Assembly (NCBI RefSeq): GCF_044324785.1
Contig: NZ_CP172130.1
DNA: 44,355 bases
Direction: 5' to 3' (one strand)
DNA from: Escherichia coli
GTDB lineage: Bacteria > Pseudomonadota > Gammaproteobacteria > Enterobacterales > Enterobacteriaceae
The translations under genes were made by a program, and so were the position numbers. Within the stretch, counting starts at the first letter, position 1. Each line of letters begins with the position of its first letter. This document shows, in pieces, positions 880-44,316 of this stretch. Under the pieces are notes generated by a model. The model was not told the DNA's origin. It saw nothing but the letters and a program-made list of their open reading frames with translations, and searched no databases.

Positions 880-1326
880 ATGGCTAAAATCTATCAATTC
901 CCTCAGGGGGAAGAACGTGCTAAATTCAGGAAAGAAATAGCCAGGGAGCGTAAGAAACGTTTTGCAGTGAAAACAGGGAGCACTTTTGTTAAGTGGCTTG
1001 GCTGGGGATGGTTTTATCTTCGTCTTCTTGTCGCGAGTGTTTTACATTTTATCTTTGTTTTTGTGTTAGCCATTCTTGGTGCGTTTAAATGGGCTGTATT
1101 CTGGCTGGGTGGTATTTTGTGTGTCATCACCTGGTATCATCTCGATCACCAGTTATGGACTCCACAAAATCTGACTATACCGGTGATTACGGCAACCTGG
1201 ATTTTGGGACTGCTGGCTGAGCCTCTGATGGAGCTGCTCAACAAAACTATGCCCTGGCACAAGTTACTTGTTCCCGAACCTGCGGACGAAAGCACCGAGA
1301 ACAGTAGCGAGATAAGCCAGCAATGA
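880..1326 (+). CDS. Small membrane protein immediately downstream of pir (position of bis in R6K/IncX)
   Basis: 148-aa ORF with a basic N-terminus and two or three hydrophobic helices; GAGG-type RBS region; synteny with pir. Assignment as bis is positional only. Confidence 0.5.
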   Translation: MAKIYQFPQGEERAKFRKEIARERKKRFAVKTGSTFVKWLGWGWFYLRLLVASVLHFIFVFVLAILGAFKWAVFWLGGILCVITWYHLDHQLWTPQNLTIPVITATWILGLLAEPLMELLNKTMPWHKLLVPEPADESTENSSEISQQ

Positions 1327-1354: not shown

Positions 1355-1468
1355 CCTTTTCACTGTGATGCAGGATAGGGCAAACGCCGTAAAATGACGT
1401 CATTGACGCCATTTTACGGCGTTTGCCCGGTAACCTACAGTCGGTTCTTATTGGAGAATTTTATGAAA
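1355..1468. promoter_or_regulatory. oriT-like / beta-origin-like element, copy A of a ~110-bp inverted repeat pair; contains a perfect 19-bp palindrome
   Basis: GGGCAAACGCCGTAAAATG...CATTTTACGGCGTTTGCCC palindrome; about 85% identical in inverted orientation to 40331..40443 next to taxA; ends in GGAGAATTTT-ATG. Confidence 0.5.
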
Positions 1469-1819
1469 TATCAGGTGAGAGAGTTTATTAACGAAAAATA
1501 TGCTAAGGCTGTTAATATTTTAAATGATAATCTTAAAGAAAACTACCATGTTTTTTATGGAGTAAGATTAAGTGAGATTCTTTTCCCTGCCAGTGAGTAT
1601 GGCTCTGATGCATTCTTTAAAGAGTTTGAATCAATTAACAGTGTAATACTTCCATTAGTAATATTTGATTTTATAGACCGAAAGCCGATTATGGTTATCG
1701 GCTTCGATAAGATACCTGATGCCAGTTTGTTTGAAGGAACAAATATTGTGGTTCTTGAATGTACTACCCTCGCCGATCTTCTGACAAATGATAACATTTG
1801 TTTTTTATATAAAAGCTAA
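1463..1819 (+). CDS. Hypothetical protein (118 aa)
   Basis: ORF-track frame 1394..1819 trimmed to the ATG preceded by GGAGAA. The upstream 23 codons are simply the translated inverted repeat shared with the taxA upstream region. Confidence 0.5.
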   Translation: MKYQVREFINEKYAKAVNILNDNLKENYHVFYGVRLSEILFPASEYGSDAFFKEFESINSVILPLVIFDFIDRKPIMVIGFDKIPDASLFEGTNIVVLECTTLADLLTNDNICFLYKS

Positions 1820-2793
1820 GAATCTCCTATCAGTTTATATTTTCTGCTTGGGTTGCCAAGTGTTATCGAGTCCAGTTCATGTGAGTAATGATGTGTATGA
1901 TAATGTGCTGGATTTTTCAGATAATCAGGGAGTGATATTATTTTTCCGTAGCTAATTGCAGAATAAAACCAGTTGCGGAATGTCTCGCTGTTTGTTTTTA
2001 AAGCATCTTTTGGAATAAATGCTAATTTTATGTTAGAAACGTAATTAACAGGTTTAAGTGTGGTATGTCTGTTTTGTCCAAAGTCTTTTAAAGCATCTGT
2101 AAATTCATATTCTGATGTATAATTTTCTGTCTTATTACTAGGGTGTTTTATCTGGAATATGAATGAATAGTAGTTCTGGCCAAGTATTTCAACGGTGTTT
2201 GAATTTATGCTCAGTTGTTCAATAACCGCTTCTCTTTTATACTCTAATTTGTCTCTGACAGATTGATATACAACCATTGCTGCATGATGTGAACCACCAC
2301 TGTTTAAAGCCACATATCGGTCAATCCAAGAGTAATATTTAACATTAATAGGATCGCGAGGCTTGAAACCTTCATGCTCAATGTGCCATATATTATCCTC
2401 CCAGTCTGAAATATTTTCAGCTTTCAGATTTTCGGCAGGATACATCCCCTCTCCCCACGAATAAAGATCTTTGAACCAACTACCATTTATTACCTTGCTC
2501 CATCCACAACCGAAACTTTTCGAGTCAGTCAGAGATTGTATTTTGTTAAAATCGAAGTCCAGAGAGTGTTTCTTATCTGTAGTTATTAAGTTGCTCAGAA
2601 TTTCAGCCAGATCCCTGTCAATATATCTCAGTGAGTATTCGCTAAATATATTTTCAAGCTGCAATATGGTGTCTGCATCTGCTGTAGGTTTAAATAACTT
2701 AATATCAGCAAGATTTTTAAACGTTGCTGTGGTCAGTTTATGGTGATCTGTCAACCTGTAGAGGTTACAGATCAATTCGGTTAAATATCTCAT
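1816..2793 (-). CDS. Hypothetical protein (325 aa), AT-rich accessory gene, no recognised domain
   Basis: Long uninterrupted ORF convergent with the 118-aa gene; strongly AT-rich codon usage unlike neighbouring backbone genes. Confidence 0.55.
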   Translation of the reverse strand: MRYLTELICNLYRLTDHHKLTTATFKNLADIKLFKPTADADTILQLENIFSEYSLRYIDRDLAEILSNLITTDKKHSLDFDFNKIQSLTDSKSFGCGWSKVINGSWFKDLYSWGEGMYPAENLKAENISDWEDNIWHIEHEGFKPRDPINVKYYSWIDRYVALNSGGSHHAAMVVYQSVRDKLEYKREAVIEQLSINSNTVEILGQNYYSFIFQIKHPSNKTENYTSEYEFTDALKDFGQNRHTTLKPVNYVSNIKLAFIPKDALKTNSETFRNWFYSAISYGKIISLPDYLKNPAHYHTHHYSHELDSITLGNPSRKYKLIGDS

Positions 2794-7084: not shown

Positions 7085-7344
7085 CCGTTTCTCCAGGTTG
7101 ATACTGGAGGAAGTCGCCGTTGCTTGCTCATACATCGCCTGTCACAACGGCTCTCTCACATTGTTGGATGTAGAGTACCTTCCCCCTGCCAGAGCACTGA
7201 ACACAGCACCACCTGTTTGTTCAGCCAGGACTTTAATTCGTTCATACCCAGATAGCGCAGGGTTTAGAAGCAAGGGAGGCACACTGTACAGCGCCAACAC
7301 AAAGATTATACGGGGTCTGACGCTCAGTGGAACGAAAACTCACG

Positions 7345-22340: not shown

Positions 22341-22958
22341 TTATATAACTAATGCACTTTCAATAGACGGTTGTCTTTTGAATAAAGAACAATCTGTATT
22401 CAATCGTTCAGACTGAATAGTGTGAAGTAAAAGGCTTTCTTCTCTGGACAGAAGGAAGTCACCCCATTCGAACTCTTTCCACATATCATGACTGTTTTCA
22501 CCAGGCTTATTTAATAAGGACTCCATTTTGGGCTGGATTCTGGCTGGAGGATTATTTTCATAAGCTGAATGTACCCTGTCACTCCACTTATCAAAAGAAC
22601 CATTTAATAGAATTTCCTGTGATACCATATCAAAATCATCATCTTCTATATAGGTATTTACCCGATGATAAATCAATCCCATATCTTCAATATCCCAGGT
22701 GTATATAGTAGTAAACCATCTTAATTTTTTATCTGTTTGCAAAACGAGGCCATTGACTGACTTTCTTCCTTTTCGCATTCCAACCCATAAACATTTGTTA
22801 GGCCACGGTCTCCCCACAGATAATGATTTATCATCAATAGTTAAATTAAGTTCAGGTATGGAGATAGATTTAAGACTACATTTATTAGCCATTCGATGAA
22901 AAAGTTTAGGTACAATATGCAAGTACATATAGATTTCCTTTATCTTTAGTGTGCTCAA
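22341..22958 (-). CDS. Hypothetical protein (205 aa)
   Basis: Co-directional, tightly spaced with neighbours; AT-rich; no recognised motif. Confidence 0.5.
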   Translation of the reverse strand: MSTLKIKEIYMYLHIVPKLFHRMANKCSLKSISIPELNLTIDDKSLSVGRPWPNKCLWVGMRKGRKSVNGLVLQTDKKLRWFTTIYTWDIEDMGLIYHRVNTYIEDDDFDMVSQEILLNGSFDKWSDRVHSAYENNPPARIQPKMESLLNKPGENSHDMWKEFEWGDFLLSREESLLLHTIQSERLNTDCSLFKRQPSIESALVI

Positions 22959-27617: not shown

Positions 27618-28645
27618 TCCTTCAGTTTTCTGAAATAATCATCAAAATGAAGTTGTCTGTAGTAAATGCCGGAAGCGAACCGAAAATCTTCATCATCAAG
27701 GTATTTAATACTCATGATAATATCAATATTACTCAGTACACGTCTTAAAATGACATTGAATGGTAGATTCTGACATTCAGGATTCATATAACATCGCTGG
27801 ACAATCCCAAGCACGGCATATTCAGGACTACTTTCGTGAACGGTGGTAATGTTTCCTGCATGGCCTGAACTCGATGCTTTCAGAAAATCCCATGCCTCAG
27901 CTCCCCTGATTTCTGTCATCAGAATCCTGTCCGGATTCATACGAAAACAGGAACGCAGAAGACTCGCTGAGGTAATAATCTTACTCTCCCCCTCTGCCGG
28001 ATAGTAAAGTTTTACATGGTTTTTATGAAATCTGAATTTTGCCTCATCAGTATCTTCAATAGAAATACACCGCAGATGATGCGGTATATATTCCAGACAG
28101 GCATTTGCAAAGGTGGTTTTACCTGACCCTGTTCCTCCACAGAAAACTATCGTTTTCCCCTGACTCAGTGATTCAGGTATAACCCGTTCAAAATATCCGG
28201 AAGTGATTAAAGCAGAAATATTATCTTCCATAACAGAGTCACCACTTAAACCACTGACGCGTGAATAAAATCCCTGTTTTATAAATTTGTCATGACTGAT
28301 AAAAATACCTGACGGCTTACGGATTGTTATAGAAACAGTATCTTTTTCAGTTGCCGGTGGGATCACAACCTGAACACGTTCTCCACCCGGAAGCGTGGCA
28401 GAACGCAGGGGATATTCAGGAGTCACAGAACCGCCGTCATGAAAATCGGCCAGTGTGGATGCAAAAGAAAGACAATCACTGTAACTCATCTTTTGTTCAT
28501 ACCATTGCCACTTTCCCCTGACCTTTATAAATATTTCTCCTGGTCGGTTAACAGCGATTTCCGTGACACCATCAGTCTCATTCAGCCAGTGATAAAAATA
28601 GTCGTTAACCACATCATAAATCAGATGTCTGTTTTCGTTATTCAC
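27614..28645 (-). CDS. pilX11: T4SS ATPase VirB11 homologue
   Basis: 343 aa; Walker A GGTGSGKTT. Confidence 0.85.
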   Translation of the reverse strand: MNNENRHLIYDVVNDYFYHWLNETDGVTEIAVNRPGEIFIKVRGKWQWYEQKMSYSDCLSFASTLADFHDGGSVTPEYPLRSATLPGGERVQVVIPPATEKDTVSITIRKPSGIFISHDKFIKQGFYSRVSGLSGDSVMEDNISALITSGYFERVIPESLSQGKTIVFCGGTGSGKTTFANACLEYIPHHLRCISIEDTDEAKFRFHKNHVKLYYPAEGESKIITSASLLRSCFRMNPDRILMTEIRGAEAWDFLKASSSGHAGNITTVHESSPEYAVLGIVQRCYMNPECQNLPFNVILRRVLSNIDIIMSIKYLDDEDFRFASGIYYRQLHFDDYFRKLKE

Positions 28646-37819: not shown

Positions 37820-38303
37820 TTTTTAACCTGTCGTATTTTCTGTTACACACATAGTCGGCAAAGACTTGTCCACGCTTTGAAGCGTCTGCAAGGAGAAGTA
37901 TTTTTGCCAGACAGGAGTTATTCATCAGGCTTAAATTCATCGAAAAAATCTTCTCCTGCTCTTTTACTTCATTTATGACACTTAGAGGAACTTCAGCAGG
38001 ATATTCACCAAAACTGACCAGTCCATAAACATTTTTCATCCGGGTAAAGCAGGATGGATGTACAACCTCAAAATCCAGAAGAACGAATACATAACCGGGA
38101 AACATTGGCATGATTTGTCCCCTGTATGCACTACAGTCACGCCTCTTATAGAAAGTGCGTATAACTGGATTGTAGTAAGCGATACCGCTCCGGGATAACT
38201 GCAACAGAACCGACTGATGAAAATGCGGAGAACACTGAAGCAGGTAAAACTGTTTCTGTCCTTTCATACTCAATCCCCGATATACAGATGTGACAAAACA
38301 CAA
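37749..38303 (-). CDS. actX: NusG/RfaH-like transcription antiterminator (ActX-type activator of the pilX operon)
   Basis: Family assignment is mainly positional (first gene of the pilX operon), with weak sequence resemblance to NusG-like proteins; probable true start at the internal ATG (MKGQKQFYLL...). Confidence 0.6.
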   Translation of the reverse strand: MCFVTSVYRGLSMKGQKQFYLLQCSPHFHQSVLLQLSRSGIAYYNPVIRTFYKRRDCSAYRGQIMPMFPGYVFVLLDFEVVHPSCFTRMKNVYGLVSFGEYPAEVPLSVINEVKEQEKIFSMNLSLMNNSCLAKILLLADASKRGQVFADYVCNRKYDRLKNDSYKRKAETATQCTLPSYRSSC

Positions 38304-38619: not shown

Positions 38620-39792
38620 TTATAAGCCCAAAAACTTAATCCCTGTTTTCAGCTTCTGTTCTGACTGTAACGTGGATGCTTTCTGCTGCGTAAACTGCGC
38701 CATTCGCTGTTGTTGCTTCAACAGCATATCAGGGCTGTTCAGTACCAGCTCTTTGCTGGCTGAAGGTGTTCTGTCTACGCCCTTAACCCCCAGATTTTCT
38801 AACTGCCACTCATTTCTGTGAACCGTTTTCCAGCCATGCTGAACACCATTTTTATCGAGCGCCGGGATTTTTACTTCTTTCTGACCAAGTTTCTTCAGTC
38901 TGACAAGATCACCTGCTTTAACGCTTTCCCGCGAACATAAGTCCCCAAAATCAGCCCCCCAGTATGTTTTCTCAACCCCCTTGTTAAGAGTCTTTAGCTT
39001 TATAAAATGTTGCTTAGACTTTGTTTTATCGTTCTGATAATGGTCATAGCCAATATCAACAACCTCATAAACACCTTTCTGTCTTTTTGGTGCTGTATTA
39101 TGTGCATCTTTAACAGACTGATTAAGTCCATGCTGTTGCTTATGGGTCGCTTTAACGTCATAACCTTTTAACTTCAACTCTTCACAAAAACCTGTACGAA
39201 TTTCCCGTAAATCTTTTTTCCTGATATCAGCGCGTTTACCGTCATTATCTCGGATACGAAAAACAACATGAACGTGAGGATGTTCTTTCTTATCACAGTG
39301 GTATCCAAGAACAAAACGGTGATTAGGATATTTTTTCTGCATCGTTTTCCTGACAGACTCCAGCAAATCTTCAGGCTTTACTTTCGCTGAAACTGGAGGC
39401 GAGAAGACAATATTCTGTGTGATTTTTTTATTTTCTTTACCTTTATCATTCATCACATGCTGAGGATCATTAGCACGATCTATCATGTGCTCTTTAGCTT
39501 CCAGAATTTCGTCACCCGTCCATACCCGACCGCTTTCACTCATCACTGGTAGCTCTGACTCACGGCTCATATAATCAATACTGTTCCGAATCCCCTGACG
39601 AGTAATAGCACCTCCAGATATTTTGACAACAACCTCCTTACTGGCACCCTTGCGGTTGATACGTTCCTGAACATTGCGGCTATAGTTCTTTCCACCATTT
39701 TTGACTTTGTGAGCGAAAGCTGACTTACGACCATTTTCTGATGACTTTCGTTTAACACGATATTCTTTATCAACGTAAACGCCCATAATCAC
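38620..39792 (-). CDS. taxC: Conjugative relaxase (MOBP-type)
   Basis: 390 aa; histidine triad HPHVHVV and N-terminal catalytic region; adjacent to taxA and the oriT-like repeat. Confidence 0.8.
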   Translation of the reverse strand: MIMGVYVDKEYRVKRKSSENGRKSAFAHKVKNGGKNYSRNVQERINRKGASKEVVVKISGGAITRQGIRNSIDYMSRESELPVMSESGRVWTGDEILEAKEHMIDRANDPQHVMNDKGKENKKITQNIVFSPPVSAKVKPEDLLESVRKTMQKKYPNHRFVLGYHCDKKEHPHVHVVFRIRDNDGKRADIRKKDLREIRTGFCEELKLKGYDVKATHKQQHGLNQSVKDAHNTAPKRQKGVYEVVDIGYDHYQNDKTKSKQHFIKLKTLNKGVEKTYWGADFGDLCSRESVKAGDLVRLKKLGQKEVKIPALDKNGVQHGWKTVHRNEWQLENLGVKGVDRTPSASKELVLNSPDMLLKQQQRMAQFTQQKASTLQSEQKLKTGIKFLGL

Positions 39793-40334
39793 ATCTCCAC
39801 TTTATTTGAAACAGTTCTCCCTTTACATAACATAATGTAATTCTCAAACTGATTCTTAAGATTAAAAATTTCTGTTGTAAGACGCTCCGCATCCTGATAG
39901 AAACCATCTTTATCAAGAACCCTGGTCTGATCATTAACAATGATATAATGGAAATTACGACCGATCTTATCAATTGAATTACGGCAACGATTCATCATCA
40001 GCAGTTCCTGGTCAAAGAAATCCAGTTCATTTTCAAGTGTCGTCTGTATGCGGTAACGACATTCTCGTGATAACGTCCATCCGTGACGATTAGCAGCTCT
40101 TTCAATATCAGCCCTTTGTTTACCTGTTAAGTACATCGTTGTTTTGATAAAATCATTATTATCAAAAAACGTATTTATATCCTTACTGACAGCTTTACTT
40201 TTTAATAAAGCATTTGCTAAAAGTTTCATGCCTTTAGCTACTGTTAAAGCTGGTTCATCCGGATAAAGAGTTTTAAGGCAATCCAGCAAATCATCATGCT
40301 GATTTTCATCAATTCTGAATTGAACTTTTTTCAT
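39789..40334 (-). CDS. taxA: Relaxosome accessory protein
   Basis: 181 aa from the ATG preceded by GGAGAA; the 23-codon extension in the ORF track is the translated inverted repeat. Confidence 0.65.
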   Translation of the reverse strand: MKKVQFRIDENQHDDLLDCLKTLYPDEPALTVAKGMKLLANALLKSKAVSKDINTFFDNNDFIKTTMYLTGKQRADIERAANRHGWTLSRECRYRIQTTLENELDFFDQELLMMNRCRNSIDKIGRNFHYIIVNDQTRVLDKDGFYQDAERLTTEIFNLKNQFENYIMLCKGRTVSNKVEM

Positions 40335-40443
40335 AAAATTCTCCAACAAGAACCGACTGTAGGTCACCGGGCAAATGTTGCGGAATGGCGTCAGAGACGT
40401 CATTTTGCAGTGTTTGCCCTATCCTGCATCGCAGTGAATCTGG
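40331..40443. promoter_or_regulatory. oriT-like / alpha-origin-like element, copy B of the inverted repeat pair
   Basis: About 85% identical (inverted) to 1355..1468, including the GGGCAAAC...GTTTGCCC palindrome and the shared GGAGAATTTTATGAAA translation start. Confidence 0.5.
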
Positions 40444-40659: not shown

Positions 40660-40932
40660 TCAGCTAAGGTTGCTCTGTTCAGGTTGCTGAGTGTAGCCTT
40701 CCATGCCCTGACGGGCATCAAAAAGCCAGCGCCGGAAGTTACTCATTCTTTCAAGGTTAGCTTTGCTTGGTTTTTTGCCACGATTACCACTTAATATCCG
40801 CCAGACTCGTATTCCTGCTTTATTAGTCCAGTGCAGAACAATTTCTCCTTTGCTGTTAAAAGCAAGAGAAAAGCGTACAGCGCCTTGCCGCAATTCTCCA
40901 CTGACAAAGGACACAAAATCATGTTTTGTCAT
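40660..40932 (-). CDS. Hypothetical small protein (90 aa), presumed leading region
   Basis: Fourth of four tightly packed small ORFs downstream of a strong promoter. Confidence 0.45.
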   Translation of the reverse strand: MTKHDFVSFVSGELRQGAVRFSLAFNSKGEIVLHWTNKAGIRVWRILSGNRGKKPSKANLERMSNFRRWLFDARQGMEGYTQQPEQSNLS

Positions 40933-40944
40933 AAAGCCTCCGGT

Positions 40945-41142
40945 TTATTTATCTGTTCTCTTTTGTGTCTTTTTTTCCAGTGCTTTTCTGAGTAATGCCA
41001 TATACTCAGGAAAGACATGGAATGGCATCAAAGGGAAAACCGGACGCCCACCCTTTTCAACGTCATTTATTGCTGATAATATGCGTTCCGACATTTTATT
41101 CCTCGCAATAGAATCAGGTGTCACGGTATCAGGTTGCCCCAC
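40945..41142 (-). CDS. Hypothetical small protein (65 aa)
   Basis: Tightly packed small ORF in the same string. Confidence 0.4.
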   Translation of the reverse strand: MGQPDTVTPDSIARNKMSERILSAINDVEKGGRPVFPLMPFHVFPEYMALLRKALEKKTQKRTDK

Positions 41143-41163
41143 AACCTGATACCATCTTTATCT

Positions 41164-41343
41164 TTACTTTATTAACTTCTCAATTGCTTCTTTTTTTGCT
41201 TTCTCCTGTTCTGATGGTGGGTATGCAAGGTCATACCAGTTATCAATACAATGAATAACTCTTTCTTTAGATAATCCACATTGCTCAAACCAAAATTTTA
41301 TATTTCGGTTTAATGATGCTTTTGCGCTAAACTCTCTTTCCAT
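41164..41343 (-). CDS. Hypothetical small protein (59 aa)
   Basis: MEREFSAKASLNRNIKFWFEQCGLSKERVIHCIDNWYDLAYPPSEQEKAKKEAIEKLIK; found by manual translation (under the ORF-track cutoff). Confidence 0.35.
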   Translation of the reverse strand: MEREFSAKASLNRNIKFWFEQCGLSKERVIHCIDNWYDLAYPPSEQEKAKKEAIEKLIK

Positions 41344-41385
41344 TTTCAGACCTTTACTAAAAGGGGGAATATCCCCCCTGATTAA

Positions 41386-41715
41386 TTAGTAGTAAGAAGA
41401 AAATCGATGTTTTTCTTCCGGTAGAGTTTTATACGCAGTTTCAAAATCTTCGATTTTGATTGCCAGCTCATCACCAAAATCTTTTATCTGACGCTTAAAA
41501 CATTCACCAGTAAAATCATTTAAAACGGGAGTTTTAAAGCCGACCATTGAATCGGTATATTCTGAATTGGCGCGAATCTCGCGAACGGTGACGGTTTTTT
41601 TACCGTGAACAGAAAGAACCTGGTAGAAGGTTACATTGGTTTGCTCATAGCCCCATGATGATACAAAGATATCACCAACAGAGACAGTATCATTTTTAAA
41701 AGTTAATACTTTCAT
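41386..41715 (-). CDS. Hypothetical protein (109 aa), first gene behind duplicated promoter-operator-leader copy 1
   Basis: Start directly preceded by GGGAGCTAAA and a conserved leader hairpin. Confidence 0.5.
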   Translation of the reverse strand: MKVLTFKNDTVSVGDIFVSSWGYEQTNVTFYQVLSVHGKKTVTVREIRANSEYTDSMVGFKTPVLNDFTGECFKRQIKDFGDELAIKIEDFETAYKTLPEEKHRFSSYY

Positions 41716-41805
41716 TTTTAGCTCCCGCCCAGCTTGGGCTCTGGATGAAAGAGAACCTGTTTCCCTTTCCTGTGTTTTATTATACCTGCATTTGCAGGTA
41801 TGGCA
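41716..41805 (-). promoter_or_regulatory. Promoter-operator-leader cassette, copy 1 (TTGCCA-16 bp-TATAAT with ACCTGCAAATGCAGGT palindrome; leader hairpin GCCCAAGCTGGGC)
   Basis: About 90 bp, roughly 90% identical to 42627..42716. Confidence 0.6.
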
Positions 41806-41807
41806 AG

Positions 41808-42029
41808 TTATTTTTTTACCAGCCTGTAAGACGGATGCATATTTGCTAATAACAATAAATACTGATATTCACCAATAGATAAAGAACGACTGGCCTTACC
41901 TGCACTTTCTTTCATCTGCCAGGAATTCAGTTGATAACCAAAAATATCAGCAGCTTCTTTAAGAGTAAGACCTGCCGCAACCCGCGCATTCTTTACTTCT
42001 TCAGGTGTAGGTTTATTCTGCATTTTCAT
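41808..42029 (-). CDS. Small HTH (XRE-like) DNA-binding protein (73 aa)
   Basis: Helix-turn-helix signature ...AAGLTLKEAADIFGY...; overlaps the upstream 81/85-aa ORF by 17 nt. Confidence 0.55.
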   Translation of the reverse strand: MKMQNKPTPEEVKNARVAAGLTLKEAADIFGYQLNSWQMKESAGKASRSLSIGEYQYLLLLANMHPSYRLVKK

Positions 42030-42270
42030 CCCCTTTTGTCAGACAATCACACAAAACCCCATTATCCAGAAGCATCAATGATGCCAGGTTGAGTTTTTCG
42101 TCCATTATCAATTTTCTTACTGTTTTCCTGCTTTTAGTTTTATCAATCGTCTTAACATATTTTAAGACGTGAAAAACCGTATCCCCATCTTCATCCATCG
42201 TTCTGATTACATAGGAGTAATTACCTCTGTTTTTCTTAATTATCTTATCTTTATCCATATTATTCCTCAT
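42013..42270 (-). CDS. Hypothetical small protein (81-85 aa) translationally coupled to the HTH gene
   Basis: Probable start at 42258 (GAGGAA then ATG, MDKDK...). Confidence 0.45.
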   Translation of the reverse strand: MRNNMDKDKIIKKNRGNYSYVIRTMDEDGDTVFHVLKYVKTIDKTKSRKTVRKLIMDEKLNLASLMLLDNGVLCDCLTKGDENAE

Positions 42271-42271
42271 A

Positions 42272-42300
42272 ACTAAAAAAGGGGCTTAATGCCCCTTTTT
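42272..42300 (-). terminator. Intrinsic terminator hairpin, plausibly bidirectional
   Basis: AAAAAGGGGCATTAAGCCCCTTTTTT. Confidence 0.6.
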
Positions 42301-42302
42301 AT

Positions 42303-42626
42303 CTATAACACGGTATGTAACCCTGTTTCCTGTGTAAATAAACGCGCTAACTGATCACAATAGATATTATCGAATCTTGAAATATCTTTAACTTCAGCAC
42401 CACGTACACGAGAAAATTTCACCTGGTACGTATCAGTAAAATCCAGTTTAATTTTTACTAAGTTGATGCCTTTCATTGCAAAATTTGACGGCAAACGGAA
42501 AGTTAACCCACACTCACCGTTTTCATCAAAGTAAGAAAAACTTTTAGCACCAGTCATAACAATAAAACGATTACCACCAAGTTGACGTAAAATCTCTGTG
42601 GCTACAGATTTAGCGTAGTTTTGCAT
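42303..42626 (-). CDS. Hypothetical protein (107 aa) behind promoter-operator-leader copy 2
   Basis: Start preceded by GGGAGGTTAAA and the conserved leader hairpin. Confidence 0.5.
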   Translation of the reverse strand: MQNYAKSVATEILRQLGGNRFIVMTGAKSFSYFDENGECGLTFRLPSNFAMKGINLVKIKLDFTDTYQVKFSRVRGAEVKDISRFDNIYCDQLARLFTQETGLHTVL

Positions 42627-42716
42627 TTTTAACCTCCCGCCCACTTTGGGCTCTGGATGAAAGAGAACCTGTTTCCCTTTCTTGTGTTTTATTATACCTG
42701 CATTTGCAGGTATTGC
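42627..42716 (-). promoter_or_regulatory. Promoter-operator-leader cassette, copy 2 (TTGCAA-16 bp-TATAAT with the same palindrome and leader hairpin)
   Basis: Direct repeat of 41716..41805. Confidence 0.6.
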
Positions 42717-42771
42717 AAATTTTTAATGCTCTCGCTCTGACTGTAAACAGTCAATCATTTGATGATTAATC

Positions 42772-43053
42772 TTAGCGCAAATCTGCGATCTGATAGACTT
42801 CGCTGCTTTCCCTTCTTCCAACGGCAATAACGAGTAAAACGACTTTCTCATCAATGACTTGGTATACAAGTCTGTAGCCAGATGCACGAAGTTTGATTTT
42901 ATAGCGATCAGCATGACCATGTAACCGGGCTGCGGGTACGCGTGGATTTTCCAGCCGTTCTGCCAGTTTCTTTTTGAATTGTTCACGGATGGTGTGGCCG
43001 AGTTTCTGCCATTCCTTCAGTGCTCTACGGTCAAAAGCCAGTTCATAGGTCAT
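42772..43053 (-). CDS. stbE: RelE/ParE-family toxin of a type II toxin-antitoxin pair
   Basis: 93 aa; RelE-like sequence (…YKIKLRASGYRLVYQVIDEKVVLLVIAVGRRE…); 11-nt overlap with the upstream antitoxin gene. Confidence 0.8.
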   Translation of the reverse strand: MTYELAFDRRALKEWQKLGHTIREQFKKKLAERLENPRVPAARLHGHADRYKIKLRASGYRLVYQVIDEKVVLLVIAVGRRESSEVYQIADLR

Positions 43054-43294
43054 CCAGGTTAACCTTCACAATTTCCGGGTTTTTCATGCGCTCATCAGCA
43101 ACAGCGTTTAACTCAGCATCTTCAGCGAGTTCCCGATAGTAGGCGTAAAGTTTTGGTGGAACGCAATAGAACGCCGGTTCGTTTCGGTTCAGGATCGCAA
43201 CAGCGTCCCCTTCACCTTCAGCTACGGTTCCCATAGGATTTTTTTTCAGGTCAGTAATACTGGCCGCTGTGGTTGTCAGAATTTGATAGCTCAT
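43043..43294 (-). CDS. stbD: RelB/Phd/YefM-type antitoxin
   Basis: 83-aa acidic protein immediately upstream of and overlapping the RelE-like gene. Confidence 0.75.
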   Translation of the reverse strand: MSYQILTTTAASITDLKKNPMGTVAEGEGDAVAILNRNEPAFYCVPPKLYAYYRELAEDAELNAVADERMKNPEIVKVNLDDL

Positions 43295-44045: not shown

Positions 44046-44177
44046 AACATGAGAGGATTTTTAACGTAAGGTGAGAGGATCTTTAACATAAGGTGAGAAG
44101 ATTTTTAAGTAAGGGTGAGAAGATTTTTCACTAAAGATGAGAGGATTTTTAACGAAAGGTGAGAGGATTTTTAAGTA
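44046..44177 (+). repeat. Six tandem 22-bp iterons of a gamma-type (pi-dependent) replication origin
   Basis: AACATGAGAGGATTTTTAACGT / AAGGTGAGAGGATCTTTAACAT / AAGGTGAGAAGATTTTTAAGTA / AGGGTGAGAAGATTTTTCACTA / AAGATGAGAGGATTTTTAACGA / AAGGTGAGAGGATTTTTAAGTA; AT-rich flanks. Confidence 0.85.
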
Positions 44178-44260
44178 CATCCACAGGCTAAAAAAATATC
44201 ATGTAAAACATGATGTTATGAATTCATTTTGATGTGAATACATAAAGATCTTTATATCTA

Positions 44261-44316
44261 AAGGTGATAAGTTTTTTAACTAAAGGTTGTAATGTGTTGT
44301 TGTCATACAACCTTTA
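44261..44316 (+). promoter_or_regulatory. pir promoter/operator: iteron-like box AAGGTGATAAGTTTTTTAACTA plus 10-bp inverted repeat AAAGGTTGTA-N14-TACAACCTTT
   Basis: Lies just upstream of the pir ATG across the circular junction. Confidence 0.6.

What the first reader, a model, noticed from the sequence alone, without database searches (positions are those of the whole stretch)
1355..1468. Pair of ~110-bp inverted repeats with internal palindromes at 1355..1468 and 40331..40443: candidate dual oriT / alpha and beta origins
The two copies are about 85% identical, in opposite orientation, and each ends in the same GGAGAATTTT-ATG start fused to an unrelated gene (the 118-aa ORF and taxA). Copy A holds a perfect 19-bp palindrome, a typical nic-site-proximal structure. 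They lie roughly 1.5 kb and 3.7 kb either side of the iteron origin. As I recall, R6K has alpha and beta origins on either side of gamma and two functional oriTs, which this layout fits. Two oriTs in inverted orientation would have consequences for transfer direction and recombination.
Basis: partly seen in the sequence, partly recalled or inferred. Interest (0 to 1): 0.55.

Follow-up and report, generated by a model that had tools for sequence, protein, structure and literature searches.

The report
The two IncX plasmid transfer origins
The two 110-bp inverted repeats are the known pair of conjugative transfer origins (oriT-alpha and oriT-beta) that flank the replication region of R6K-type (IncX) plasmids, so the finding is real and correctly read but already described.

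Summary
The repeat is real: arms 1359-1468 and 40329-40438, 110 nt, 87% complementary. The window is a complete circular IncX1 plasmid with a MOBP relaxase and a type-T mating system. Copy A lies between bis and ddp3/taxD. Copy B lies just upstream of taxA-taxC.

On one strand, each copy reads: an invariant 21-nt block, a 24-bp hairpin, then TATCCTG|C. That motif is the nick-site consensus of MOBP relaxases and is identical to the RP4 nick octamer. The nicked strands are opposite, so both origins lead into the 5.3-kb replication segment.

The same pair, at the same two positions, is present in R6K (87-89% identity), IncX3, IncX5, IncX4 and a Providencia plasmid. Small Col plasmids carry the 83-nt core alone.

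[quoted passage not shown] One such plasmid, pECTm80, has a beta copy identical to this one.

My additions are minor:
- The hairpin pairs better on the nicked strand (98.6% vs 82.9% of cells).
- The two copies evolve in concert within each plasmid.
- The perfect palindrome of copy A is a rare allele.
- No inversion isomers were found.

The vegetative alpha/beta origin role rests on synteny and literature only.

Verdict: already known, low interest.

The parts
1359..1468 (-). Long inverted repeat, beta copy (oriT-beta); the nicked (transferred) strand is predicted to be the minus strand
   Evidence: 88.7% identical to R6K 28054-28159; 100% identical to pECTm80 NC_015472.1
1370..1377 (-). Nick motif TATCCTG|C; predicted nick between 1371 and 1370 on the minus strand
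   Evidence: MOBP consensus YATCCTG|Y and RP4 octamer TATCCTGC from PMC3772185; invariant in all copies aligned. Nick position is inferred by analogy, not measured.
1378..1428 (-). 24-bp hairpin with a 3-nt loop (nick-proximal arm 1378-1401, loop 1402-1404, distal arm 1405-1428); the perfect 19-bp palindrome is 1378-1396 with 1410-1428
   Evidence: -31.8 kcal/mol, z -8.9
1429..1449 (-). Conserved distal block (nicked strand: AAGAACCGACTGTAGGTTACC); candidate binding site for an accessory relaxosome protein
   Evidence: nearly invariant across IncX1/2/3/5 and the Providencia plasmid; kept in orphan oriT cores of Col plasmids. The binding role is inferred.
1453..1465 (+). Shine-Dalgarno GGAG plus the ATG of ddp3, inside the repeat
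   Evidence: the NCBIfam DDP3 profile starts at residue 1
1463..1819 (+). ddp3/taxD (118 aa)
   Evidence: NCBIfam DDP3 171.8 bits; RefSeq annotation of the near-identical record
880..1326 (+). bis-like ORF (148 aa); it would enter first from oriT-beta, with the transferred strand as its template
   Evidence: named bis in PMC3332091
1..855 (+). pir/repX replication initiator
44050..44181 (+). Six 22-bp iterons (gamma origin)
40329..40438 (+). Long inverted repeat, alpha copy (oriT-alpha); the nicked strand is predicted to be the plus strand
   Evidence: 87.3% identical to R6K 22702-22818
40420..40427 (+). Nick motif TATCCTG|C; predicted nick between 40426 and 40427 on the plus strand
   Evidence: inferred by analogy with RP4
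40369..40419 (+). 24-bp hairpin (arm 40369-40392, loop 40393-40395, arm 40396-40419). It has six G.T pairs on the nicked strand, which become A.C mismatches on the other strand.
   Evidence: -19.7 kcal/mol, z -3.9, against -16.3, z -2.6 for the complement
40348..40368 (+). Conserved distal block AAGAACCGACTGTAGGTCACC
39789..40334 (-). taxA/ddp1, relaxosome accessory protein (181 aa); its Shine-Dalgarno sequence (40341-40344) and ATG lie inside the repeat
   Evidence: NCBIfam DDP1 236 bits
38620..39792 (-). taxC/ddp2, MobP1-family relaxase
   Evidence: NCBIfam MobP1 436 bits, cutoff 200; MOB-suite type MOBP
40660..43294 (-). Block of small ORFs plus the stbD/relE toxin-antitoxin pair, all on the minus strand; it would enter first from oriT-alpha, with the transferred strand as template
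   Evidence: the early-expression role is inferred

Best explanation
The two repeats are the oriT-alpha and oriT-beta of an IncX (R6K-type) conjugative plasmid.

Each copy is a complete MOBP-type origin of transfer. On the strand to be transferred it reads, 5' to 3': a conserved 21-nt block, a 24-bp hairpin, then the nick site TATCCTG|C. The TaxC relaxase, helped by TaxA and probably Ddp3/TaxD, would assemble on each copy. It would cut after the G, stay bound to the 5' end, and pilot that strand through the PilX/VirB type IV secretion system.

Because the copies are inverted, the nicks fall on opposite strands: plus at 40426|40427 and minus at 1371|1370. Both origins therefore send the 5.3-kb replication segment (small ORFs, toxin-antitoxin pair, gamma iterons, pir, bis) in first and the tax and pilX genes in last. 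A strand started at one origin meets only the complement of the other origin, so it cannot terminate early and delete part of the plasmid.

In IncX1, X2 and X3 the repeat also carries the ribosome-binding site and start codon of the gene on its outer side. This ties expression of taxA-taxC and of ddp3 to the same DNA.

Shown here: the sequence anatomy, the homology to R6K, the conservation and the gene context. Inferred: the exact nick position, the strand polarity and the protein binding sites. Taken from the literature: that both origins work in R6K.
For: - Repeat confirmed.
- TATCCTGC lies directly 3' of the hairpin in both copies. It matches the MOBP consensus and the RP4 nick octamer (PMC3772185).
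- Adjacent MobP1 relaxase, DDP1 and DDP3.
- The plasmid is typed IncX1, MOBP, MPF_T.
- The same two-copy inverted layout at the same two positions is found in R6K, IncX3, IncX5 and an untyped Klebsiella plasmid. It is also found in IncX4 (TaxC only 35% identical; repeat pair 98.9% identical) and in a Providencia plasmid (pair 96.9% identical).
- The 83-nt core alone occurs in 2.2-kb and 8.6-kb Col plasmids.
- The hairpin forms standard pairs in 98.6% of cells on the nicked strand against 82.9% on the complement. Counted by type, that is 41 G.T against 2 A.C.
- Copies within a plasmid share lineage-specific changes.
- Literature: PMC3402527, PMC3332091, bioRxiv 10.1101/2024.01.30.577996, PMC11915502, and the citations of Avila et al. 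1996.
Against: - Nothing here measures nicking or mobilisation for this plasmid.
- The nick position and strand are assigned only by analogy with RP4.
- The primary R6K papers were not readable here.
- The two copies are only 85-87% identical to each other in this plasmid, less than in the other IncX groups examined. Their hairpins differ (perfect in beta, six wobble pairs in alpha), so they may not work equally well.
- pECTm80, which carries the same beta allele, was not mobilised by the RK2-type helper pRK600 (PMC3332091). That helper supplies a different relaxase, so this is not a fair test.
Confidence: 0.9

Rival explanations
1. The repeats are only a duplicated promoter, leader and translation-start cassette that co-regulates taxA-taxC and ddp3. 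They have no role in DNA transfer.
For: Both copies end in the same GGAGAATTTTATGAAA fused to unrelated genes. The conserved block next to the start codon could contain a weak -10 (TACAGT; my reading of the sequence).
Against: - The promoter scan finds no sigma-70-like site inside either copy.
- The core is kept in small Col plasmids with no gene downstream.
- In IncX4 the repeat stops before the ribosome-binding site.
- The nick motif and hairpin are the most conserved parts.
- A regulatory role alongside oriT, as in RP4, is still likely.
Confidence: 0.03
2. The repeats act mainly as the alpha and beta vegetative replication origins, activated from the gamma iterons by the initiator protein. 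Transfer would be a minor role or absent.
For: - The layout matches R6K: alpha 3.4-3.6 kb on the far side of gamma, beta 1.5-1.65 kb beyond pir and bis.
- PMC3332091 places the alpha and beta origins at the long inverted repeats.
- The title of Flashner et al. [quoted passage not shown]
Against: - No iteron-like site within 3 mismatches of 16 lies outside the gamma origin region. The same scan is equally blind in R6K, so this test is inconclusive.
- The MOBP nick motif, the relaxase next door and the orphan copies on Col-type replicons are explained by transfer, not by initiator-dependent replication.
- The two roles do not exclude each other, and both probably hold in R6K.
Confidence: 0.05
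3. Only one of the two copies is a working oriT in this particular plasmid. The other is a decaying or altered duplicate.
For: - The alpha and beta cores are only 84.8% identical here, against 94.6-100% in R6K, IncX3, IncX4 and others.
- The beta allele with the perfect palindrome is rare: 33 of 812 records that match this region.
- The alpha hairpin has six wobble pairs.
Against: - Both copies keep the nick motif, the nick-proximal arm (one change) and the distal block intact.
- All alpha-hairpin substitutions keep pairing on the nicked strand.
- Plasmids that lost the tax region keep the beta copy.
- The lineage with this allele pair is widespread in E. coli and Salmonella.
Confidence: 0.12
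4. The repeats are terminal inverted repeats of a mobile element, or sites of a site-specific inversion system, that carries the 5.3-kb replication module.
For: They are inverted repeats bracketing a discrete module.
Against: - No transposase or invertase lies between them.
- The outer ends run straight into start codons.
- No record among 1922 matches covers the junction expected after inversion. About 790 of those records are at least 95% identical to the query.
Confidence: 0.01

Closest known systems
[quoted passage not shown] 1997; Flashner et al. 1996)
   Same: - Two inverted copies at the same positions: upstream of taxA-taxC, and between bis and ddp3.
- 87-89% nucleotide identity to R6K 22702-22818 and 28054-28159.
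- Same nick motif, hairpin position, distal block and fused start codons.
- Same spacing around the gamma origin.
   Different: - The window is IncX1, not IncX2. Its iterons and initiator differ.
- The hairpin arms differ at several positions.
- The window's two copies are less alike (84.8% against 94.6% in R6K).
- Its beta copy is a perfect palindrome.
pECTm80 / pE001 lineage of IncX1 plasmids (PMC3332091)
   Same: The beta repeat and its flanks are 100% identical over 221 nt (H96-H98). The paper annotates oriT-alpha and oriT-beta within these repeats, with ddp3(taxD), bis, repB, stbDE, ddp1(taxA) and ddp2(taxC) in the same order.
   Different: pECTm80 has lost the pilX genes and is not conjugative. 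The window keeps the full type IV secretion system.
RP4/RK2 (IncP, MOBP) oriT
   Same: Nick octamer TATCCTG|C; an inverted repeat just 5' of the nick on the nicked strand; the origin sits directly upstream of an accessory-protein and relaxase operon (traJ-traI against taxA-taxC).
   Different: RP4 has a single oriT. There is no sequence similarity outside about 10 nt at the nick. Here the hairpin ends directly at the TATCCTG motif and is longer (24 bp). TaxA has no Pfam match.
Other dual-oriT elements (ICEclc, pAD1), as listed in PMC5587640
   Same: Two origins of transfer on one element.
   Different: Unrelated relaxase families and sequences. I did not examine how those pairs are arranged.

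Membership tests
IncX long inverted repeats carrying oriT-alpha / oriT-beta (R6K type) | Two copies in inverted orientation flanking the pir/gamma-origin replication region | tested here: met
   Arms 1359-1468 and 40329-40438; iterons 44050-44181 and pir 1-855 lie between them on the circle
IncX long inverted repeats carrying oriT-alpha / oriT-beta (R6K type) | Sequence homology to the R6K repeats | tested here: met
   88.7% over 106 nt and 87.3% over 118 nt to NZ_LT827129.1
IncX long inverted repeats carrying oriT-alpha / oriT-beta (R6K type) | One copy next to taxA-taxC, the other next to bis/ddp3 | tested here: met
   NCBIfam DDP1, MobP1 and DDP3; RefSeq annotation of the near-identical record
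IncX long inverted repeats carrying oriT-alpha / oriT-beta (R6K type) | Each copy alone supports TaxC-dependent mobilisation | not testable with these tools
   Reported for R6K by Avila et al. 1996 (title cited); not measured for this plasmid
MOBP-type origin of transfer | Nick-region consensus YATCCTG|Y | tested here: met
   TATCCTGC at 1370-1377 (minus) and 40420-40427 (plus); consensus from PMC3772185
MOBP-type origin of transfer | Inverted repeat immediately 5' of the nick on the nicked strand | tested here: met
   The 24-bp hairpin ends at the base before TATCCTG
MOBP-type origin of transfer | Cognate MOBP relaxase encoded on the element | tested here: met
   MobP1 436 bits, cutoff 200; MOB-suite MOBP
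MOBP-type origin of transfer | Site- and strand-specific cleavage with covalent 5' attachment of the relaxase | not testable with these tools
   Needs biochemistry
R6K alpha and beta vegetative replication origins | Position relative to gamma and pir (alpha a few kb on the far side, beta just beyond pir and bis) | tested here: met
   3.6 kb and 1.5 kb here; 3.4 kb and 1.65 kb in R6K
R6K alpha and beta vegetative replication origins | Initiator-binding iteron or half-iteron at the distal origin (feature recalled from my own knowledge of R6K) | tested here: inconclusive
   No match within 3 mismatches of 16 outside 44050-44280. The same scan finds none near the repeats in R6K either.
R6K alpha and beta vegetative replication origins | Replication starts there in vivo | not testable with these tools
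   Needs 2D gels or start-site mapping

The most novel reading that the evidence does not exclude
The pair of inverted oriTs may define a two-sided leading region. In all six annotated IncX-type plasmids examined, every gene between the origins points toward the nearer origin. The strand launched from oriT-beta is therefore the template for bis and pir. The strand launched from oriT-alpha is the template for the small-ORF, repressor and toxin-antitoxin block. Which origin fires would decide which establishment genes can be expressed from single-stranded DNA on entry.

Two related points:
- The hairpin appears to be selected on the transferred strand only (41 G.T against 2 A.C).
- It has been 'perfected' independently in two lineages, in opposite directions, as if by template switching within a quasi-palindrome. 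This suggests it really does extrude in vivo.
Probability: 0.25. Interest if true: 0.4.

Novelty: already known. Interest (0 to 1): 0.15.

Why it matters
IncX plasmids spread NDM, KPC, mcr-1, qnrS and, here, TEM-1 and aminoglycoside resistance genes. Knowing that each backbone has two working transfer origins affects three things:
- Predicting mobility. Derivatives that lost the tax and pilX genes still keep oriT-beta. Small Col plasmids typed 'non-mobilizable' carry the core.
- Interpreting oriT counts in surveys.
- Designing oriT-based tools or transfer blockers.

None of this is new for the family. For this window the value is a correct annotation, plus a few testable details on strand-specific hairpin selection and on how the two copies are kept alike.

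Tried and rejected
- Sigma-70 promoter scan of both repeats: no site inside either copy.
- Iteron scan for initiator sites near the repeats: none. The R6K control shows the scan cannot see them, so I did not use this result.
- Search for inversion isomers with a chimeric bis-repeat-taxA junction: 0 of 1922 records cover 80% or more of it.
- Exact-match scan of species-representative genomes for the invariant 19-mer: only three short contigs, assigned to Streptomyces and to Clostridia/Lachnospiraceae MAGs. These look like contamination or mis-binning and added little diversity.
- Pfam on TaxA and Ddp3: nothing significant, only a weak DUF2726 hit for Ddp3.
- PHROGs on the ORFs between the origins: only unknown-function families and a weak repressor hit.
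- Folding the 238-nt non-coding stretch just past the alpha nick, as a candidate single-strand initiation signal: not more structured than shuffles (z -1.6 and -1.9).
- Rfam on the whole window: only the integron leader and AgrB, unrelated to the finding.
- Primary R6K papers and reviews (PubMed 8757282, PMC3691012, PMC98921) are not held. No supplement held the reference oriT_R6K sequence.
- The longer in-frame ORFs starting at ATG 1394 and 40403 inside the palindrome were rejected as real starts. The family profiles begin at the downstream ATG, and the extension is disrupted in other IncX plasmids, for example by the deletion in the Klebsiella plasmid.

Full report
**Observation**

The inverted repeat exists as described. 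The repeat finder gives arms 1359-1468 and 40329-40438, 110 nt, 87% complementary. A pairwise alignment shows continuous similarity from TTCACTG to GGAGAATTTTATGAAA. blastn scores the pair at E = 2e-34.

**Context**

The window is a whole circular plasmid. It is collinear with NZ_CP104480.1, which is typed IncX1, MOBP, MPF_T. Its two ends are adjacent in NZ_CP031110.1.

The gene order is: pir (1-855), bis (880-1326), copy A, ddp3 (1463-1819), then partition and resistance genes, then the pilX/virB genes. After those come taxC (38620-39792, minus), taxA (39789-40334, minus), copy B, a run of small minus-strand ORFs with stbD/relE (40660-43294), and six 22-bp iterons (44050-44181).

NCBIfam assigns TaxC to the MobP1 relaxases (436 bits, cutoff 200), TaxA to DDP1 (236 bits, cutoff 150) and the 118-aa ORF to DDP3 (171.8 bits, cutoff 140). 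All three profiles start at residue 1 of the ORFs that begin at the shared ATG.

**Anatomy**

Each copy, read on one particular strand, has four parts:
- a 21-nt block, AAGAACCGACTGTAGGT(C/T)ACC;
- a 24-bp hairpin with a 3-nt loop;
- the octamer TATCCTGC, directly after the hairpin;
- about 11 more shared bases.

The octamer is at 1370-1377 on the minus strand and at 40420-40427 on the plus strand. It equals the MOBP nick consensus YATCCTG|Y and the RP4 nick sequence (PMC3772185). As in RP4, the inverted repeat lies 5' of the nick and the accessory and relaxase genes lie beyond it.

As single-stranded DNA, the copy A strand that carries the motif folds at -31.8 kcal/mol (z -8.9). The copy B strand folds at -19.7 (z -3.9), against -16.3 (z -2.6) for its complement.

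**Comparison**

A distant blastn search finds the repeat in 2273 PLSDB records, mostly Escherichia, Klebsiella and Salmonella.

I fetched R6K (NZ_LT827129.1, IncX2), an IncX3 NDM-5 plasmid, an IncX5 Serratia plasmid and an untyped Klebsiella plasmid. Each has exactly two copies, inverted, one upstream of taxA and one between bis and ddp3. Identity to the R6K copies is 88.7% and 87.3%.

The layout also holds far beyond detectable nucleotide similarity:
- An IncX4 mcr-1 plasmid, whose TaxC is only 35% identical, has a 94-nt pair that is 98.9% identical.
- A Providencia plasmid (TaxC 52% identical) has a 97-nt pair that is 96.9% identical.

In both, the pair sits at the same two positions, and TATCCTGC directly follows a hairpin of different sequence. 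In IncX4 the repeat stops short of the ribosome-binding site.

Plasmids that have lost the transfer genes keep the beta copy. The 83-nt core (block, hairpin, nick) occurs alone in a 2.2-kb Col(MG828) plasmid and in an 8.6-kb ColE1-like plasmid. MOB-suite types both as non-mobilisable.

These orphan copies and the IncX4 boundary show that the conserved unit is an oriT, not a promoter or translation-start cassette.

**Details that go slightly beyond the literature I could read**

1. *Strand-specific pairing.* The hairpin's imperfections are almost all G.T on the strand carrying the nick motif. Over 12 distinct stems there are 41 G.T and 2 A.C, with G.T at nine pair positions and A.C at one. With the pair-counting tool, 98.6% of 216 cells form standard pairs on that strand, against 82.9% on the complement. 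This fits a hairpin that acts in the single-stranded transferred DNA. A C-to-T mutation bias on that strand is the alternative explanation.
2. *Concerted evolution.* Copies within a plasmid share lineage-specific changes. Within-plasmid identity is 100% (IncX3 and the Klebsiella plasmid), 98.9% (IncX4), 96.9% (Providencia), 94.6% (R6K), 89.1% (IncX5) and 84.8% (this window). R6K and the Klebsiella plasmid are only 77-89% identical to the IncX1 and IncX3 copies.
3. *A rare allele.* The window's beta copy is the odd one. Its distal arm differs at five positions from other IncX1 beta copies, and each change makes it the exact complement of the proximal arm. The IncX5 alpha copy has been perfected in the opposite direction. 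This looks like template switching within a quasi-palindrome. The perfect allele occurs in 33 of 812 matching records, all of the pE001/pECTm80 lineage.
4. *No inversion.* None of 1922 records contains the junction expected if recombination between the repeats had inverted the replication segment.

**Mechanism**

The best explanation is the established one. TaxC, with TaxA and probably Ddp3/TaxD, forms a relaxosome on each copy, nicks after the G of TATCCTG, and leads that strand into the recipient.

From the orientation of the motifs, the plus strand would leave from 40427 toward higher coordinates. The minus strand would leave from 1370 toward lower coordinates. Both origins therefore lead with the 5.3-kb replication segment and finish with the tax and pilX genes. 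Neither strand carries the other origin in cleavable form, which avoids premature termination and deletion.

The nick position and polarity are inferred by analogy with RP4. That both origins work is taken from the R6K literature.

In six of six annotated IncX-type plasmids, all genes between the origins point toward the nearer origin. This is the orientation reported for leading-region genes in general (PMC11541004). It suggests a two-sided leading region, but conserved synteny makes it effectively a single observation.

**Alpha and beta replication origins**

The layout around gamma matches R6K. PMC3332091 places the alpha and beta origins at these repeats. The title of Flashner et al. [quoted passage not shown] I could not test this from sequence. 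An iteron scan finds nothing near the repeats, but it finds nothing near them in R6K either.

**What is known**

- PMC3402527 states that conjugative IncX plasmids carry two oriTs within long inverted repeats, one near taxC and one near repX, and calls this a hallmark of the group.
- PMC3332091 annotates oriT-alpha and oriT-beta in pECTm80, whose beta repeat is identical to the window's.
- A 2024 preprint notes that oriT_R6K is typically duplicated in MOBP1 plasmids.
- A 2025 paper maps H-NS-like binding to the two oriTs of IncX3.
- The founding experiment is Avila, Nunez and de la Cruz 1996, which I could only see cited.

**Verdict**

The feature is already known. Interest is low.

**Limits**

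- There are no functional data for this plasmid.
- The comparative set is about 20 copies from 11 replicons, many of them related by descent.
- The strand asymmetry and the concerted evolution are patterns, not proofs of mechanism.

Noticed in passing
window 41715-41812 and 42627-42724: A 98-nt direct repeat (92% identical). Each copy carries a near-consensus sigma-70 promoter on the minus strand (TTGCCA-16-TATAAT, 11 of 12 matches; second copy 10 of 12), with a 10-bp palindrome in the spacer. The copies lie just upstream of ORF109 (41386-41715) and ORF113 (42303-42644). This looks like a duplicated, operator-controlled promoter in the alpha-side leading region. A small HTH-like ORF (41808-42029; weak PHROG repressor hit) lies between them.
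   Followed up: partly
window 1378-1428; L005 (IncX5) alpha copy: The perfect palindrome of the beta copy is a minority allele: 33 of 812 matching PLSDB records, all of the pE001/pECTm80 lineage. It differs from other IncX1 beta copies by five changes in one arm that make it complementary to the other arm. The IncX5 alpha copy was perfected in the opposite direction. This suggests template switching within a quasi-palindrome.
   Followed up: partly
L010 810-891 (OW969597.1, 2.2 kb); L011 7133-7215 (NZ_CP056713.1, 8.6 kb); L006 186-267: Small Col-type plasmids typed 'non-mobilizable' carry only the 83-nt IncX oriT core (distal block, hairpin, TATCCTGCATC), with no relaxase. They are likely hitchers on IncX plasmids.
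   Followed up: partly
window 2435-2442(-), 8940-8947(+), 13836-13843(-), 37996-38003(-): There are four further exact TATCCTGC octamers besides the two in the repeats. That makes six in the window against 0.99 expected, and none of 100 shuffles reached six. None has similarity to the repeat, and the excess is unexplained.
   Followed up: no
L006, L007, L008 (genome contigs): IncX repeat sequences turn up on short contigs assigned to Streptomyces capoamus (604 bp) and to Lachnospiraceae and Clostridia MAGs. L007 holds both copies, inverted and 6.3 kb apart. These are probably contamination or mis-binned enterobacterial plasmid fragments.
   Followed up: no
L012 1425-1952 (IncX4); window 1463-1819: In IncX4 the slot occupied by ddp3 holds a DUF2726-domain protein. 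The window's Ddp3 gives a weak Pfam DUF2726 hit (E = 0.0066). Ddp3/TaxD may therefore be a short, diverged DUF2726 relative.
   Followed up: no
window 10270-10569, 11585-11884, 15185-15484; 7312-7349 / 17967-18004; 14219-14294; 18107-18194: The resistance region holds three identical repeats that correspond to IS26 copies, and a perfect 38-bp Tn3-family inverted repeat pair 10.6 kb apart. Rfam matches the integron AAC_AAD leader/attI and the AgrB antisense RNA, which lies in the part of the backbone where the near-identical record has the dqlB type I toxin gene.
   Followed up: no
window 1474-1493: GGTGAGAGAGTTTATTAACG, in the first codons of ddp3, resembles an iteron (GGTGAGAGGATTTTTAACG) apart from one extra base. 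I saw it by eye only. It is not conserved in the IncX2 or IncX3 ddp3 genes, so it is probably chance.
   Followed up: no
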